Shown here piece by piece: positions 1-9,641 of a DNA stretch of 51,817 nt. The stretch's first letter is position 1; each line of letters begins with the position of its first letter. Position numbers and translations under genes: made by a program. The notes below the pieces were generated by a model. The model did not search any database. It was not told the origin of the DNA and worked only from the letters and a program-made list of their open reading frames with translations. The DNA is from a virus. Taxonomy: Duplodnaviria; Caudoviricetes. The stretch is from IMG/VR virus record IMGVR_UViG_3300044822_000145, positions 1 through 51,817 of that record; one strand, given 5' to 3'.

Positions 1-310
1 CGCGGACCTCAGCCGCGCGGACCTCAGCCGCGCGTACCTCAGCGGCGCGGACCTCAGCAGCGCGTACCTCCGCGGCGCGTACCTCCGCGGCGCGTACCTC
101 CGCGGCGCGGACCTCAGCAGCGCGTACCTCCGCGGCGCGGACCTCATCGGCGCGGACCTCAGCAGCGCGTACCTCCGCGGCGCGGACCTCATCGGCGCGG
201 ACCTCAGCGGCGCGGACCTCAGCCGCGCGGACCTCAGCCGCGCGGACCTCCGCGGCGCGGACCTCAGCCGCGCGGACCTCAGCCGCGCGGACCTCAGCCG
301 CGCGGACCTC
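1..310 (+). repeat. 15-bp tandem repeat GCG(G/T)ACCTC(A/C)(G/T)C(C/G/A)GC, about 20 units
   Basis: Directly visible; encodes the pentapeptide repeats. Confidence 0.95.
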
Positions 311-6127: not shown

Positions 6128-6693
6128 GATGCTTCTTTCACGTATTGACTCCATGCGACATCGACGTTCAATGAGACCGCCGAAAAGTTTATCCAGTCTT
6201 GGAAGACTGAAGCACCATAGTTCTGTCCCGTCGTCCACGCATCCGGGCTGACATGCTCGGCCAGCTCCAAGCCGACGCCCTGGATTCCCAAGTTGTAGGC
6301 AGCGAACGCGGCGATGTGATCGTTCGGGTACTTGTGAAGCGCGGGTTCGAGAAACTCGTGCGCGGCGACGCGCAGGTTCGTGAGAGGGTCCATGAGGTTG
6401 CCGTAGCCGGGATAGCTTGGAAACACCCCGCGCCATTGGACGCCGAAGGTAATCTGACAAATTCCGGCACCCACCCCCGGCCCAGGTATCATCCCACGCT
6501 GCAAGATATTCTCGCCACCTGATTCTCTGTCCACGATCGCCGCGAGCATGCACGGCTCCGTAAGCGCGCAACCGGCAACGGCTTCCGTATAGAGCGGCGC
6601 GTAGGCCATGAGCGCCTTGCGCCACGGCACCGCAAATGCGGGCTTCTTTTGAGCCGCGAGCGCGGCGACTTGCTGCACCGTGAGGAGTCCCAT
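6124..6693 (-). CDS. Lytic transglycosylase (SLT/GH23), probable endolysin
   Basis: AIVDRESGG, GAGICQI, DPLTNL and AAYNLG are the canonical SLT motifs; start taken at ATG 6693. Confidence 0.85.
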   Translation of the reverse strand: MGLLTVQQVAALAAQKKPAFAVPWRKALMAYAPLYTEAVAGCALTEPCMLAAIVDRESGGENILQRGMIPGPGVGAGICQITFGVQWRGVFPSYPGYGNLMDPLTNLRVAAHEFLEPALHKYPNDHIAAFAAYNLGIQGVGLELAEHVSPDAWTTGQNYGASVFQDWINFSAVSLNVDVAWSQYVKEAS

Positions 6694-6726
6694 GCCCGAG
6701 GCCTTCAGGAGCGCGGCGCGAACGCC

Positions 6727-6735
6727 TGGTATAAT
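6727..6735 (+). promoter_or_regulatory. Extended -10 promoter (TGgTATAAT), probably giving a leaderless transcript
   Basis: TATAAT at 6730-6735, 7 nt before ATG 6743; no SD. Confidence 0.6.
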
Positions 6736-6742
6736 GGGGCCA

Positions 6743-7234
6743 ATGCTACATGAGATACGAGAGATGCCCGTAAGCGAACTCAAAGCCGCGCCGTACAATC
6801 CGCGTAGGATCGACGCGGCTGCGATGGCGGCGCTTACCAAAAGCATCGAACGATTCGGCTATGTGGAACCGATCGTATTCAACAAGCGCAGCGGCTTCGT
6901 TGTCGGAGGTCACCAACGGCTCAAGGTGTTGCGCGCAAGTAAGATCAAGGAAGTCCCGGTCGTGATCGTTGACCTCGCCGAGAACGAAGAGAAGGCGCTC
7001 AACGTCGCGCTGAATTCGCCGACTCTCGCCGGTGAGTTCACGGATGATCTTCAAGCTATGCTTCAGGATATTCAATTAAAAGATGAATCGTTATTCGAAA
7101 GCCTTTTGTTCGATAAACTCTTGGGTGAAGGCGCGCCTACCTTCGAACCGGAGAATATAGAATCGTTAAAACGTCTTGACGAGAAAAAGATGATCGTCTG
7201 CCCGAACTGTCAACATGAATTCTCTCAATCCTAG
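6743..7234 (+). CDS. ParB/Srx N-terminal-domain protein with C-terminal CxxC
   Basis: LKAAPYNPR, SIERFGYVEPIV, VVGGHQRL, ALN and CPNC motifs; typical partner of phage DNA-modification genes. Confidence 0.85.
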   Translation: MLHEIREMPVSELKAAPYNPRRIDAAAMAALTKSIERFGYVEPIVFNKRSGFVVGGHQRLKVLRASKIKEVPVVIVDLAENEEKALNVALNSPTLAGEFTDDLQAMLQDIQLKDESLFESLLFDKLLGEGAPTFEPENIESLKRLDEKKMIVCPNCQHEFSQS

Positions 7235-7856
7235 TCTTCACATAGCGCCATGCACGTTAGAAGCCGCTGAATACGCATGTAAGAATTATCATTATAGCGG
7301 AAAATTGGCAGGTAAAGGACTATCAACTGTCCCATTCGGCGTTTGGGAAAACGGTATTTTTGTAGGTTCAATTATGTATGGCCTTGGAGCAACGGGAAAT
7401 ATCGGAAAACCGTTCGGGCTCGTAAAAGGCGAAATTTGTGAACTCGTTCGAATCGCGTTAAAAAAACATGAGACACCGGTATCTCGAATGCTCGCAATTA
7501 CAGTAAAAATGCTGCATAAGAGCTCTAATGGTCTTCGTATGATCGTAAGCTTTGCCGATTCGGGACAAGGCCATCACGGCGGAATTTATCAAGCATGCGG
7601 ATGGATATATCTCGGGAAAACTTCAGGGAATGGATATTTTTTTATACGAGGAAGAATCGTACACTCAAGGAGTATTCATGGTAAATATGGGAGCGGCACT
7701 CAATCTCTCTCATGGATACGAAAGAATCTTGACCCAAAGGCAACACCCGTTCAAACAGGAGCAAAACATAAATATGTTTGGTGTTACGACGAAAGATTAA
7801 AAAGGAAAATAACCGCTATATCTCTTCCATATCCAAAACGTGCGCAGGGAGCATGA
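7215..7856 (+). CDS. mom: Mom-family (GNAT fold) adenine hypermodification enzyme
   Basis: YHYS, ELVRIAL, IVSFADSGQGHHGGIYQACGWIYLG, KHKY and PYPK motifs match Mu Mom-like proteins. Confidence 0.85.
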   Translation: MNSLNPSLHIAPCTLEAAEYACKNYHYSGKLAGKGLSTVPFGVWENGIFVGSIMYGLGATGNIGKPFGLVKGEICELVRIALKKHETPVSRMLAITVKMLHKSSNGLRMIVSFADSGQGHHGGIYQACGWIYLGKTSGNGYFFIRGRIVHSRSIHGKYGSGTQSLSWIRKNLDPKATPVQTGAKHKYVWCYDERLKRKITAISLPYPKRAQGA

Positions 7857-7916
7857 TGGTAATGTGCAGTCATTCCATGATTGAGAAGGCCGTTCGAATC
7901 GGACCTCTGCGCTCCG
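7842..7916 (+). tRNA. Non-canonical tRNA-Gly(TCC)-like RNA
   Basis: Acceptor GCGCAGG/TCTGCGC, D arm GCAT/ATGT, anticodon arm CAGTC/GATTG with TCC at 7874-7876, T loop TTCGAAT, T stem GGCCG/CGG[A]CC with bulged A7903, U73; position 8 is G and the 3' end is CCG. Confidence 0.8.
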
Positions 7917-7962
7917 ATCCCCGTATAAAGGCAAGCATAAACGGTAAAGAAAGCTAGATGTC

Positions 7963-8388
7963 ATGGCTGGAAGACCTAAAGGCACATTCGGAACGAAGAG
8001 AATTACAAAAGAACTTACGAAAAACATATGCGACCTAATAGAAATAGGTATGCCTCCGCATTATGCAGCACAGGAACAAGGCATATCTGAAAGACTATTT
8101 CAGATATGGATGCAACTAGGACGACAAGCACAAGAAAAAGACGAATGGATTAAGTCCTATTCCGATTTTTTTTCGGAGATAGCGCGCGCCCGCGCGCGTT
8201 GCATAAAAAGGATGCTTGTGCGGGCTCATACTGGTGAGAAGGGAAGTAGTACGGCTATGTGGGTTCTCGAAAAACAGTACAGAGAAGAATTCGGCTCATC
8301 AAAGCCCGATGACGGAAAGCAACAAATAGAGATCGTCGTTAAAAATGCCATACGCGAGCGCGATAGTGAGAGCGAATGCCAACAATAA
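7963..8388 (+). CDS. terS: Terminase small subunit
   Basis: MAGRPK start, HTH-like segment, AMWVLEK...EEFG motif; directly upstream of the large subunit. Confidence 0.8.
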   Translation: MAGRPKGTFGTKRITKELTKNICDLIEIGMPPHYAAQEQGISERLFQIWMQLGRQAQEKDEWIKSYSDFFSEIARARARCIKRMLVRAHTGEKGSSTAMWVLEKQYREEFGSSKPDDGKQQIEIVVKNAIRERDSESECQQ

Positions 8389-9641
8389 CGCTGCCCAGGC
8401 TGCATGGTGGACAGAATGACATCCTCGCGGGCGAAGGGCGTTTCAGAGCCGTGCGGTGCGGTCGCCGCTTTGGGAAAACCTATCTCGCATCCACGCTAAT
8501 ATGCGACGGCGCAGCATCGGGAGAATCATGGGGGCTCTTTGCGCCTGATTACAAGATTCTTTCGGAAACGTATCGTGAGATACATGAAATACTTGATCCG
8601 ATTATTCTTTCATCCTCCAAAATAGACGGCGTAATCCGCGTTCTCGGCGGCGGGCGCGTGGATTTTTGGACCTTGAATAATCCTCGCGCTGGACGCTCGC
8701 GCAAGTATCACGGCGTTATGATCGACGAAGCAGCGTTCGCGGATAAAGACATGGAATCGTTGTGGACGAAATCTATTAAGCCGACGCTGCTCGATTACGG
8801 CGGCATTGCATGGGCGCTATCAACACCCGCAGGCAAAGACGAAGACAACTGGTTCTACCAAATCTGCAACGACAAGAGCCTCGGCTTCGTCGAGTTCCAC
8901 GCGCCGACCGAAAACAACCCGTACCTACCGCGCGAAGAAGTCGCCAAGCTCAAGGATGAAAACTCACCCGAAGTTTACCGCCAGGAATACCTCGCGGAGT
9001 TCGTGGATTGGTCCGGCGTCGCGTTCTTCTCGATTGACGCGCTTCTCGTTGACGGTAAGCCTGTTCCGATGCCGACGATGTGCTATACGGTATTCGCCGT
9101 AATCGATACCGCGATCAAAAGTGGCGAGGAGCACGATAGTACCGGCGTCGTTTACGTTGCATACAATCCCCTCATAAAGCCGTGTACAGTCCTCTTGGAT
9201 TGGGACATTCTCAGCATAGAGGGTGCGCTCCAAGAAGTATGGCTATTGACCGTCTATGAGCGGTGCGAACAGCTAGCGCGCCAATGCGGCGCACTGAAAG
9301 GCTCTATGGGCGCGTTCATCGAGGATAAGGCGACGGGCAGCGTCCTCATCCAGCAGGCCAAGAACAAGGGCAGGCCCGCGTCTGAGATCGACTCCAAACT
9401 CACCGCGATGGGCAAGGACGAACGCGCTATCGCGGCGTCTCCCTACGTGTACGCGGGCGACATCAAAATCGCGGATGAGGCGTTCAATAAGGTTAAGGTA
9501 CATAAAAGAATTTCCGCCAATCACCTCGTCAAGCAAGTCACGGGCTTTCGCATCGGCGACAAGGGGACGGGCAAACTGGACCTGCTCGACTGCTTCACTT
9601 ACTCCATCATCATCACGCGAAACAAGCTTTGGCCGAGGTAG
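8376..9641 (+). CDS. terL: Terminase large subunit
   Basis: Walker A CGRRFGKT, Walker B VMIDEAA, STP coupling motif, RQEYLAEF, nuclease IDTA...IEDKATG...DLLD. Confidence 0.95.
   Translation: MPTITLPRLHGGQNDILAGEGRFRAVRCGRRFGKTYLASTLICDGAASGESWGLFAPDYKILSETYREIHEILDPIILSSSKIDGVIRVLGGGRVDFWTLNNPRAGRSRKYHGVMIDEAAFADKDMESLWTKSIKPTLLDYGGIAWALSTPAGKDEDNWFYQICNDKSLGFVEFHAPTENNPYLPREEVAKLKDENSPEVYRQEYLAEFVDWSGVAFFSIDALLVDGKPVPMPTMCYTVFAVIDTAIKSGEEHDSTGVVYVAYNPLIKPCTVLLDWDILSIEGALQEVWLLTVYERCEQLARQCGALKGSMGAFIEDKATGSVLIQQAKNKGRPASEIDSKLTAMGKDERAIAASPYVYAGDIKIADEAFNKVKVHKRISANHLVKQVTGFRIGDKGTGKLDLLDCFTYSIIITRNKLWPR

What the first reader, a model, noticed from the sequence alone, without database searches (positions are those of the whole stretch)
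6727..7916. Mom-family DNA hypermodifier with its own non-canonical tRNA-Gly: candidate dedicated glycyl-donor RNA
Seen: promoter, ParB-like gene, Mom-like gene, then a cloverleaf at 7842-7916. The cloverleaf keeps the bacterial GlyRS identity set (G1-C72, C2-G71, G3-C70, U73, anticodon TCC). It departs from translational tRNAs in four ways: a bulged A (7903) inside the T-stem, G at position 8, an A32-U38 pair, and a CCG 3' end. It is the only tRNA I found. Established: Mu Mom is a GNAT-fold enzyme that puts a glycine-sized group on adenine N6; GNAT-fold Fem transferases use aminoacyl-tRNA; T-stem pairs 49-65 to 51-63 set EF-Tu affinity; staphylococci use EF-Tu-avoiding tRNA-Gly for cell-wall synthesis. 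From memory, recent work reports Gly-tRNA as the Mom co-substrate (not verified here). Inference: the phage encodes a chargeable but ribosome-excluded tRNA that channels glycine into anti-restriction DNA modification.
Basis: partly seen in the sequence, partly recalled or inferred. Interest (0 to 1): 0.92.

Follow-up and report, generated by a model that had tools for sequence, protein, structure and literature searches.

The report
Mom enzymes carry private tRNA-Gly-like RNA
A phage gene for the DNA-protecting enzyme Mom, which is known to take glycine from charged tRNA-Gly, ends in an odd tRNA-Gly look-alike that recurs beside Mom genes in well over a hundred other phages and prophages, so it is probably the enzyme's own glycine carrier.

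Summary
A cloverleaf at 7842-7916 (+) has GCG/CGC acceptor ends, U73, a UCC loop, an extra A (7903) in the T stem and a CCG tail. ARAGORN calls it tRNA-Gly; the Rfam tRNA model does not see it. It overlaps the last 15 nt of a Mom-family gene (PF25680).

It is not a one-off. A homologous RNA sits at the Mom 3' end in 73 of 84 viral loci and 54 of 80 bacterial or archaeal genome loci. In reverse, 111 of 122 matches to its T-arm/acceptor motif lie against a Mom gene.

Stems covary. Mom frames read through the RNA in all three registers, so conservation is at RNA level. The family keeps the published GlyRS identity set. It often lacks what decoding needs: about half have no D arm, U33 is present in only about 40%, and 113 of 123 matches carry the T-stem bulge, which lies between two EF-Tu specificity pairs.

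Best reading (0.6): a GlyRS-charged, largely non-decoding glycyl donor for Mom. Charging, EF-Tu avoidance and use by Mom are untested. I found no description of it in Rfam or in the searchable literature.

The parts
6726..6734 (+).
   Evidence: Read from the sequence. The consensus scan found no plus-strand sigma-70-type site in 6400-8400, so this is unverified.
6680..7234 (+). ParB N-terminal-domain protein gene. The ORF runs from GTG 6680; a likelier ATG lies at 6745.
   Evidence: PF02195 ParB_N, E 1.2e-08. ParB-like genes also precede Mom in Microbacterium phage Phonegingi and lie two genes upstream in Arthrobacter phage Shade.
7215..7856 (+). Mom-family GNAT gene (213 aa). Its stop codon TGA at 7854-7856 lies inside the RNA element.
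   Evidence: PF25680, E 1.8e-40, full-length profile match. It matches the solved Mu Mom structure 8bv8. R79 and S90 align with Mu R111 and S124, the residues reported as essential, and are invariant in 27 of 27 aligned homologues (paper abstract).
7842..7916 (+). tRNA-Gly-like RNA: acceptor 7842-7848 with 7906-7912, D arm 7851-7865, anticodon arm 7867-7883, T arm 7888-7905, U73 at 7913, CCG at 7914-7916
   Evidence: ARAGORN calls tRNA-Gly(tcc). The independent model R3 scores it 56.1 bits, E 7e-13, as the only hit in the window. There is no Rfam tRNA match.
7872..7878 (+). Loop ATTCCAT: A32 and U38 can pair, U33, UCC at 7874-7876 (C35 and C36 are GlyRS determinants), A37
   Evidence: Sequence. 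CC at these positions in at least 112 of 123 model matches. The 32-38 pair is predicted de novo by RNAalifold.
7903..7903 (+). Extra (bulged) A in the 3' strand of the T stem, between pairs 51-63 and 50-64
   Evidence: The same extra A occurs in 113 of 123 model matches. RNAalifold predicts it de novo. Pairs 49-65, 50-64 and 51-63 are the EF-Tu specificity pairs (PMC3239215, passages).

Best explanation

Proposed mechanism, step by step:
1. The RNA is transcribed with mom and cut out by the host's tRNA-processing enzymes (inferred).
2. Host GlyRS glycylates it, because it keeps the bacterial glycine identity set: G1-C72, C2-G71, G3-C70, U73, C35, C36 (the sequence features are shown; charging is inferred).
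3. Mom uses it as glycyl donor to make N6-glycyl-adenine, which rearranges to N6-carbamoylmethyl-adenine in phage DNA. This chemistry is shown for Mu Mom with host tRNA-Gly; it is inferred for this enzyme and this RNA.
4. The extra T-stem nucleotide and, in many relatives, the missing D arm, missing U33, 5-nt loop and non-T-psi-C loop keep the RNA away from EF-Tu and the ribosome. Mom thus has a private glycine pool and translation is not drained (inferred).

Because the 5' end of the RNA nearly always lies inside the mom reading frame, cutting it out should also cut the message. This may tie enzyme and carrier output together (speculative).
For: Linkage, forward direction.
- Model R1 over the window plus 84 viral Mom loci (335,843 bases, both strands) gave 70 hits. 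Of these, 69 were one per source at the Mom 3' end and one was a true tRNA-Met.
- R2 adds L079. ARAGORN or inspection adds four tRNA-Gly copies without a bulge. Total: 73 of 84.
- In genomes of cellular species the count is 54 of 80.

Linkage, reverse direction. Of 122 exact matches to the T-arm/acceptor motif in IMG/VR, 84 have a Mom gene ending at the RNA, 24 have one starting at its end, and 3 have one nearby. Eight sit at contig ends and 3 have none (Pfam confirmation).

Genome-wide specificity. Five whole bacterial genomes each hold exactly one R2 match, the Mom-adjacent one.

The structure is real.
- On an unguided MAFFT alignment of 21 copies, 95.2% of cells pair, against 71.1% when shuffled and 38-45% when the partner is slid.
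- 15 of 21 pairs change on both sides, and 0 of 500 shuffles reach the covariation score.
- The D and anticodon stems were not used to pick the sequences, and they pair at 88-89%.
- RNAalifold recovers the same cloverleaf with the bulge.

The conservation is RNA, not peptide. The Mom frame reads through the RNA in 97 of 123 cases, stops inside it in 18 and before it in 7, and all three registers are used. One copy lies on the opposite strand.

It acts in trans. The RNA is found downstream, upstream, on the opposite strand, 1.3 kb away, and in tandem pairs.

Glycine identity is kept, decoding features are lost (123 matches): GCG/CGC 118, U73 120, CC at 35-36 at least 112, CCA 86; but U33 only 49, A34 60, no D arm 61. 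Only 4 of 17 tested copies pass Rfam's tRNA threshold.

Biochemical background from papers.
- Mom uses Gly-tRNA-Gly and accepts all three E. coli isoacceptors (PMC13219725).
- GlyRS determinants (PMC10464925).
- EF-Tu specificity pairs (PMC3239215).
- EF-Tu sequesters proteogenic Gly-tRNA away from FmhB, and staphylococci keep non-proteogenic tRNA-Gly (PMC7826273).
Against: - There is no expression, processing, charging or EF-Tu data. The only sequencing run that holds the stretch is DNA.
- An alpha2beta2 GlyRS (L. plantarum) barely charges an engineered D-armless tRNA-Gly and needs the L shape (PMC10464925). Charging of the D-armless half of the family is therefore doubtful until tested.
- Mu Mom works with ordinary host tRNA-Gly.
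- Mu and 7 other cultured phages with distant Mom homologues have no such RNA within 1.2-1.5 kb. Thirty-seven of the 164 closer loci also lack it. A private carrier is thus not required for the chemistry.
- The window's own copy keeps U33, UCC, A37, a D arm with GG and a TTCGAAT loop, so it might still decode.
- It ends in CCG rather than CCA, and so needs 3' repair.
- The single-sequence fold is not unusual (z = -0.92).
- The bulge statistics lean on models built from bulged seeds. At least four copies without a bulge were missed by R1.
- From recall, not from a call: free Gly-tRNA-Gly that EF-Tu does not shield may be exposed to D-aminoacyl-tRNA deacylase.
Confidence: 0.6

Rival explanations
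1. It is an ordinary phage-encoded decoding tRNA-Gly(UCC). It tops up the Gly-tRNA pool for translation of GGA/GGG codons and, incidentally, for Mom. Linkage to mom only reflects a shared demand for glycyl-tRNA.
For: The window copy has U33, UCC, A37, a 4-bp D stem, GG in the D loop and a TTCGAAT T loop. Some relatives look canonical: 4 of 17 pass Rfam's tRNA threshold. Copies without a bulge exist next to Mom (L015, L030, L031, L037, Phonegingi, Shade). Mu Mom accepts any tRNA-Gly isoacceptor.
Against: Among 123 matches, 61 lack a D arm, only 49 have U33, and 60 have A at the wobble position. A Watson-Crick 32-38 pair closes the loop to 5 nt. An extra nucleotide sits between the EF-Tu specificity pairs in 113. 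The window copy scores below E=10 with the tRNA model and has G8 and G14. It is the only tRNA-like gene in a complete 51.8-kb phage.
Confidence: 0.2
2. It is a cis-acting tRNA-like structure of the mom mRNA. It would be a processing, stability or translation-control element, for example an RNase P site that severs the stop codon or start region, or a site where Mom or GlyRS binds its own message. It would not be a glycyl carrier.
For: The 5' end of the RNA lies inside the mom frame in 115 of 122 scorable cases. In the upstream arrangement it begins 10-12 nt after a start codon that has a Shine-Dalgarno sequence. Mom is known to be under tight translational control in Mu; Com is annotated, and abstracts were seen in the listing.
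Against: The element works in too many positions for a cis role: 3' end, 5' end, opposite strand (Phonegingi), separated by an intergenic gap (Salinibacter phage B2_17), 1.3 kb away (L111), and tandem pairs. The glycine identity set, U73 and an encoded CCA are conserved, which a mere cleavage or stability signal would not need.
Confidence: 0.13
3. It is not a functional RNA at all. It would be a chance ARAGORN call, a conserved C-terminal peptide of Mom (GGxxPTxxLQ), or a tRNA-gene remnant of an attachment site.
For: ARAGORN does produce false calls in this very window. Many Mom proteins end in a recurring GGxxPTxxL tail. The single-sequence fold energy is unremarkable.
Against: The same nucleotides are read in three frames, or not translated at all. 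Stems covary. An independent model finds the window site at E 7e-13. The element is a whole cloverleaf at a fixed place beside Mom, in phages of many host phyla, and is not placed next to an integrase.
Confidence: 0.02

Closest known systems
Non-proteogenic tRNA-Gly isoacceptors (NP1-NP3) of Staphylococcus aureus and S. epidermidis, which feed FmhB/FemA/FemB
   Same: These are extra tRNA-Gly species that GlyRS charges, that bind EF-Tu-GTP and ribosomes poorly, and that a tRNA-dependent transferase outside translation prefers. Their departures from canonical tRNA lie in the D and T arms (PMC7826273, abstract and passages).
   Different: They are chromosomal, limited to staphylococci, full cloverleaves, and serve cell-wall synthesis. 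The RNA here is phage-borne, linked to or embedded in the enzyme's own gene, has an extra T-stem nucleotide, often has no D arm, and would serve DNA modification. None of its biochemical properties has been tested.
Mu Mom with host Gly-tRNA-Gly (Silva et al. 2026, PMC13219725)
   Same: Same enzyme family (PF25680), with both essential residues conserved. The co-substrate is glycyl-tRNA-Gly.
   Different: Mu carries no tRNA-like RNA near mom. The paper's main text treats host tRNA as a scavenged resource and mentions no phage-encoded tRNA, gene neighbourhood or tRNA-like element. The terms 'phage-encoded tRNA', 'neighbor', 'genomic context', 'adjacent' and 'tRNA-like' each occur 0 times. Its supplements could not be opened.
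Ordinary phage-encoded tRNAs (Rfam RF00005)
   Same: A tRNA-shaped gene in a phage genome. A few family members pass as tRNA-Gly and are annotated as such, for example in Salinibacter phage B2_17 and Microbacterium phage Phonegingi.
   Different: Most members, the window's included, fail the tRNA model. They lack decoding features. They are tied to one enzyme gene rather than to codon usage.
D-armless or otherwise truncated tRNAs (for example in animal mitochondria) and viral tRNA-like structures at RNA 3' ends
   Same: Reduced or tRNA-mimicking folds that keep an aminoacylatable acceptor end. This comparison is from recall and was not tested here.
   Different: Those occur in organelles or in RNA virus genomes and have other partners. 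This element is in DNA phages of bacteria, has glycine identity, and is linked to a DNA-modifying GNAT.

Membership tests
Canonical elongator tRNA (Rfam RF00005) | Scores at or above the family's gathering score (29 bits) | tested here: not met
   No match at E<=1 on 351 nt, at E<=10 on 111 nt, at the gathering score on the whole window, or by the genome search. True tRNAs were found by the same tools.
Canonical elongator tRNA (Rfam RF00005) | Four-arm cloverleaf with a 7-bp acceptor stem | tested here: met
   ARAGORN drawing. Family consensus fold.
Canonical elongator tRNA (Rfam RF00005) | Conserved core nucleotides U8 and A14 and a regular 5-bp T stem (which nucleotides are conserved is from recall) | tested here: not met
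   G at 7849 (position 8), G at 7855 (position 14), extra A at 7903 in the T stem.
Canonical elongator tRNA (Rfam RF00005) | Open 7-nt anticodon loop with U33 | tested here: inconclusive
   U33 is present in the window. However, A32 and U38 can pair, and the family consensus closes this pair. Only 49 of 123 family matches have U33.
Mom family (Pfam PF25680) | Full-length profile match above the curated cut-off (27.1 bits) | tested here: met
   139.2 bits, E 1.8e-40, profile positions 2-202 of 202.
Mom family (Pfam PF25680) | Residues equivalent to Mu R111 and S124, reported as essential for catalysis | tested here: met
   R79 and S90 align to them and are invariant in 27 of 27 homologues. Essentiality is taken from the abstract of PMC13219725.
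Mom family (Pfam PF25680) | Makes N6-carbamoylmethyl-adenine in DNA from Gly-tRNA-Gly | not testable with these tools
   Needs LC-MS of DNA and an in vitro assay.
Mom-linked tRNA-Gly-like RNA (family defined here, models R1-R3) | Match to a covariance model built without the sequence under test | tested here: met
   R3: 56.1 bits, E 7e-13, full length, the only hit in 51,817 bases on both strands.
Mom-linked tRNA-Gly-like RNA (family defined here, models R1-R3) | Lies against a Mom gene on the same strand | tested here: met
   It starts 15 nt before the Mom stop codon. The same arrangement occurs in 127 of 164 Mom loci.
Mom-linked tRNA-Gly-like RNA (family defined here, models R1-R3) | G1-C72, C2-G71, G3-C70, U73, C35, C36 | tested here: met
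   All are present in the window. Family frequencies: 118, 120 and at least 112 of 123.
Mom-linked tRNA-Gly-like RNA (family defined here, models R1-R3) | One extra nucleotide in the 3' strand of the T stem | tested here: met
   A at 7903. A in 113, C in 2, none in 6 of 123 matches.
Mom-linked tRNA-Gly-like RNA (family defined here, models R1-R3) | Encoded 3' CCA | tested here: not met
   The window has CCG. 86 of 123 matches have CCA.
Non-proteogenic tRNA-Gly (staphylococcal type) | Charged by GlyRS, binds EF-Tu-GTP poorly, preferred by the transferase | not testable with these tools
   These are biochemical properties. Only the sequence determinants could be checked.
Non-proteogenic tRNA-Gly (staphylococcal type) | Belongs to the staphylococcal tRNA-Gly lineage | not tested
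   The paper states that the lineage is confined to staphylococci. The RNAs here are in phages and prophages of many other phyla. The likeness is therefore one of working, not of descent.

The most novel reading that the evidence does not exclude
A large lineage of Mom DNA-hypermodifying enzymes travels with its own tRNA-Gly-derived glycyl-carrier RNA that no longer decodes. This would be the first virus-encoded non-proteogenic tRNA and the first dedicated aminoacyl carrier for DNA modification. The carrier is written inside the mom reading frame, at the 3' or the 5' end and in any register. Maturing it would therefore cut the message, making a self-limiting enzyme-plus-co-substrate cassette.
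Probability: 0.45. Interest if true: 0.93.

Novelty: new variant of a known kind. Interest (0 to 1): 0.88.

Why it matters
Mom's use of glycyl-tRNA was settled only in 2023-2026, and it was described as scavenging of a host resource. A conserved, phage-encoded carrier RNA would change that picture in several ways.

- It would show that phages can insulate a tRNA-dependent side reaction from translation, as staphylococci do for their cell wall.
- It would give natural minimal substrates, about 65 nt and without a D arm, for studying what GlyRS, EF-Tu and Mom each recognise.
- It would explain the odd C-terminal and N-terminal 'tails' of annotated Mom proteins as translated tRNA-like sequence.
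- It would add an RNA family that current tRNA finders and Rfam mostly miss.
- It would mark which uncharacterised phages probably carry glycine-derived adenine modification.

All key predictions can be tested at once with published assays.

Tried and rejected
- Rfam has no family for the site, and only chance-level matches were listed.
- Folding the single sequence gave z = -0.92 and no clean cloverleaf. The sequence alone carries no thermodynamic signal; the evidence is comparative.
- The promoter/terminator scan found no plus-strand sigma-70-like site and no terminator after the RNA.
- Sequencing runs: no RNA holder is listed, and the one DNA run may be the source sample.
- ARAGORN's tRNA-Leu at 217-302 was rejected as a repeat artefact.
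- The peptide-conservation idea was rejected because all three frames are used.
- The attachment-site remnant idea was rejected. The element is a whole cloverleaf, both acceptor strands covary, and it holds a fixed place beside Mom.
- My first regex screen required stem pairing, so its acceptor and T-stem pairing percentages are circular. I rely instead on the D and anticodon stems, the de novo consensus fold and the covariance-model searches.
- The tree is the quick IQ-TREE search, because the careful one did not finish. It has a midpoint root. Eight rows were dropped for short or stop-containing matches. L067 is mislabelled 'none' (R2 finds its RNA). L279 has only 28 nt downstream.
- Protein structure and complex prediction were not run, since they cannot address an RNA partner.
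- Supplements of PMC13219725 are closed. They may hold gene-neighbourhood data for the authors' more than 8000 homologues.
Full report
**What is in the window.**

The window is a complete 51,817-base viral record. The relevant plus-strand features are:
- 6680-7234: a ParB N-terminal-domain protein (PF02195, E 1.2e-08).
- 7215-7856: a full-length Mom-family protein (PF25680, E 1.8e-40).
- Downstream: a small ORF and a large terminase.

ARAGORN calls tRNA-Gly(tcc) at 7842-7915.
- G1-C72, C2-G71, G3-C70 and U73.
- Loop A-U-UCC-A-U.
- G at position 8.
- An extra A (7903) in the 3' strand of the T stem.
- CCG after the discriminator.

Mom's stop codon (7854-7856) lies inside the RNA.

The Rfam tRNA model gives no match, even at E<=10 on 111 nt. 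Controls worked. ARAGORN's only other call, tRNA-Leu at 217-302, sits in a 15-nt tandem array of 20.7 copies and is an artefact.

Alone, the sequence folds no better than shuffles (z = -0.92). Its reality has to be judged by comparison.

**The literature premise.**

Silva et al. (Nat Commun 2026, PMC13219725, with a 2023 preprint) show the following. I read the abstract, passages and the Discussion.
- Mu Mom transfers glycine from Gly-tRNA-Gly to N6 of adenine in double-stranded DNA.
- All three E. coli isoacceptors work.
- R111 and S124 are essential.

The window's Mom keeps both residues, as R79 and S90. They are invariant in 27 of 27 aligned homologues.

The paper's main text does not mention phage-encoded tRNA, gene neighbourhood or tRNA-like elements.

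**Forward test: do Mom homologues carry the RNA?**

Mom-protein searches of IMG/VR gave 84 loci: 4, and the best 80 of 586 confirmed. All four of the first loci showed, right after the conserved PYPKR end of Mom, the following:
- A GCG... acceptor strand.
- A loop with NCC.
- A T arm GGCGG-N7-CCG-A-CC with the same extra A.
- ...CGC-U-CCA.

I built two covariance models: R1 from 21 copies with a D arm, and R2 from 35 copies without one.
- R1 over the window plus the 84 loci (335,843 bases, both strands) gave 70 hits. Of these, 69 were one per source at the Mom 3' end, and one was a genuine tRNA-Met.
- R2 added L079.
- ARAGORN or inspection added four tRNA-Gly(UCC) copies without a bulge in the same place: L015, L030, L031, L037.

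That makes 73 of 84. Eleven have a plain stop and terminator instead.

In one genome per prokaryote species, 80 Mom loci (the best of 96) gave 53 with an R1 hit at the Mom 3' end, plus one cut by a contig end. That is 54 of 80.

Hosts with the RNA span Planctomycetota, Acidobacteriota, Alpha- and Betaproteobacteria, Chloroflexota, candidate phyla and others. Loci without it cluster in prophages of Paenibacillus/Bacillus, Serratia/Yersinia and Pseudonocardiaceae.

On a quick Mom tree, 'no RNA' needs only 5 changes, against 29.5 when labels are shuffled. This fits a few losses or gains, not scatter. The caveats on that tree are listed under Tried and rejected.

**Reverse test: does the RNA imply Mom?**

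A Mom profile scan classed them as follows:

| Class | Sites |
|---|---|
| Mom gene ends at the RNA | 84 |
| Mom gene starts at the RNA's 3' end (projected start -28 to +8 nt) | 24 |
| Mom nearby | 3 |
| Contig end, less than 700 nt upstream | 8 |
| No Mom | 3 |

Pfam confirmed Mom for three of the 'RNA first' ORFs.

In five whole bacterial genomes of 3.2-9.1 Mb, R2 finds exactly one match each, and it is the Mom-adjacent one. Only 150 first-look candidates per genome were scored.

A model built without the window (R3) finds 7842-7916 as the sole hit in the window: 56.1 bits, E 7e-13.

**It is an RNA, not a peptide.**

On the unguided alignment of 21 D-arm copies:
- 95.2% of cells pair, against 71.1% shuffled and 38-45% with the partner slid.
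- 15 of 21 pairs change on both sides.
- 0 of 500 shuffles reach the covariation score.
- The D and anticodon stems, which played no part in choosing the sequences, pair at 88.1% and 89.4%.

RNAalifold, given no structure, returns the same cloverleaf with the bulge and adds a 32-38 pair.

Many annotated Mom proteins end in GGxxPTxxLQ or ...DTDPxAP tails. These tails are the T arm and acceptor strand translated in different registers.

Of 123 downstream copies, the Mom frame reads right through 97, stops inside 18 (the window among them), stops before 7 and runs off one contig. All three registers are used. In the 'RNA first' arrangement, a start codon with a Shine-Dalgarno sequence lies 10-12 nt before G1, and the frame runs through the RNA into the Mom domain.

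**What is kept and what is lost.**

Among 123 model matches from Mom-derived loci (two of them a true tRNA-Met and a truncated copy), the counts are:

| Feature | Matches of 123 |
|---|---|
| GCG/CGC acceptor ends | 118 |
| U73 | 120 |
| CC at positions 35-36 | at least 112 |
| Encoded CCA | 86 |
| Extra A in the T stem | 113 (C in 2, none in 6) |
| U33 | 49 |
| A at wobble position 34 | 60 |
| No D arm | 61 |

The T loop is often NGCNNCA rather than TTCRANY.

The kept set is the published bacterial GlyRS identity set: G1-C72, C2-G71, C35, C36, U73 (PMC10464925, abstract and passages).

The extra nucleotide lies between pairs 51-63 and 50-64. These are two of the three pairs that set EF-Tu affinity (PMC3239215).

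ARAGORN calls few of the copies, and every call next to Mom is Gly or undetermined:
- 9 of the 73 copies in the viral set, all Gly.
- 10 of the 54 copies in the genome set: 9 Gly and one of undetermined identity.

Rfam's tRNA model passes 4 of 17 tested. The family thus runs from near-canonical tRNA-Gly to about 65-nt D-armless forms.

The window's copy is at the tRNA-like end. Its G8 and CCG are its own quirks, since the family norm is A8 and CCA.

**Cultured phages.**
- Salinibacter phage B2_17 has the bulged RNA as a separate gene after its Mom homologue. It is annotated tRNA-Gly; R1 scores it 91.7 bits.
- Arthrobacter phage Shade has an unannotated copy without a bulge that overlaps the Mom 3' end (48.9 bits).
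- Microbacterium phage Phonegingi has a tRNA-Gly(tcc) just after Mom, on the opposite strand.
- Mu itself and seven phages with distant Mom homologues have nothing within 1.2-1.5 kb. These are Synechococcus DSL-LC03, Proteus NotEvenPhaged, Vibrio ICP1, Salmonella VSiP, Enterococcus PMBT2, Bacillus Thornton and Microbacterium Cassita.

**Interpretation.**

Shown:
- A conserved, structured, tRNA-Gly-derived RNA that is genetically tied to one large branch of Mom.
- It retains the glycine identity elements.
- It frequently lacks features that decoding needs.

Inferred:
- It is processed like a tRNA, charged by host GlyRS and used by Mom as glycyl donor.
- The bulge and the other losses keep it out of EF-Tu and the ribosome.

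The nearest precedent is the staphylococcal non-proteogenic tRNA-Gly set. There, EF-Tu sequesters proteogenic Gly-tRNA away from FmhB, and special isoacceptors escape it (PMC7826273).

Its varied placement (3' end, 5' end, opposite strand, detached, tandem pairs) argues for a trans-acting gene rather than an mRNA signal. Even so, because its 5' end is nearly always inside the mom frame, maturation should also cut the message. Possible coupling of the two outputs is speculation.

Main caveats:
- There are no expression or charging data.
- An alpha2beta2 GlyRS barely charges an engineered D-armless tRNA-Gly.
- Mom does not need a private carrier (Mu).
- The window copy might still decode.

**Novelty.**

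Six literature searches found no paper that links Mom with a phage-encoded tRNA-Gly or a tRNA-like RNA. They covered Mom with glycyl-tRNA; Mom with tRNA-like and hypermodification; 'Mom-like' with 'tRNA-Gly' (0 papers); and 'momylation' (4 papers, two read in part). Rfam 15 has no such family.

The library lacks most subscription journals and all supplements, so prior mention cannot be excluded.

I class it as a new variant of a known kind (non-proteogenic tRNA dedicated to a tRNA-dependent transferase), and rate its interest as high.

Noticed in passing
window 1-310: A 15-nt tandem array (consensus CGCGGACCTCAGCGG, 20.7 copies, 89% matches) runs off the left end of the record. It causes ARAGORN's false tRNA-Leu call at 217-302.
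   Followed up: partly
window 7001-8000: G+C falls to 0.438, against about 0.55-0.6 on either side. The change begins inside the ParB-like gene (about 7035) and covers Mom and the RNA. This suggests the cassette was acquired by recombination from a lower-GC phage.
   Followed up: no
L195 3155-3883; L133 6989-7672; L131 1631-2200 (and 21 more loci): There is a second arrangement in which the tRNA-Gly-like RNA sits at the 5' end of a more divergent Mom gene. A start codon with a Shine-Dalgarno sequence lies 10-12 nt before G1, and the frame reads through the RNA into the Mom domain. This gives a 29-43-residue N-terminal extension that contains GG(S/A)IPTSxLQ.
   Followed up: partly
L164 335-472; L113 4375-4519; L200 6277-6380; L230 970-1108: Two copies of the RNA lie in tandem after one Mom gene. 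In L164 and L113 the two copies belong to different D-armless sub-types.
   Followed up: no
L205 2098-2171 (Arthrobacter phage Shade, NC_042015.1): A tRNA-Gly(UCC)-like element without the bulge overlaps the 3' end of the annotated Mom-like gene. It is not annotated in the record and ARAGORN does not call it. Related Marthavirus phages probably share it.
   Followed up: partly
window 6680-7234; L206 975-1508; L205 702-1277: A ParB N-terminal-domain ('ParB-like nuclease') gene recurs just upstream of Mom in the window and in actinobacteriophages. Its role in the cassette is unknown.
   Followed up: no
D-armless copies with connector AAAGAGCAGGNN, e.g. L047 2100-2168, L022 2112-2180: In one D-armless sub-type, a CAG in the 12-nt connector can pair with CTG just before the T arm. 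This lengthens the anticodon-like helix to about 10 bp with an internal loop. The other sub-type (connector AAGCAGGCGAT) shows no such pairing.
   Followed up: no
L216 (genome contigs): One Mom locus with a high-scoring RNA (88.5 bits) lies on a 40-kb contig binned as a Candidatus Woesearchaeota archaeon. This may be a mis-binned phage contig or an archaeal virus.
   Followed up: no
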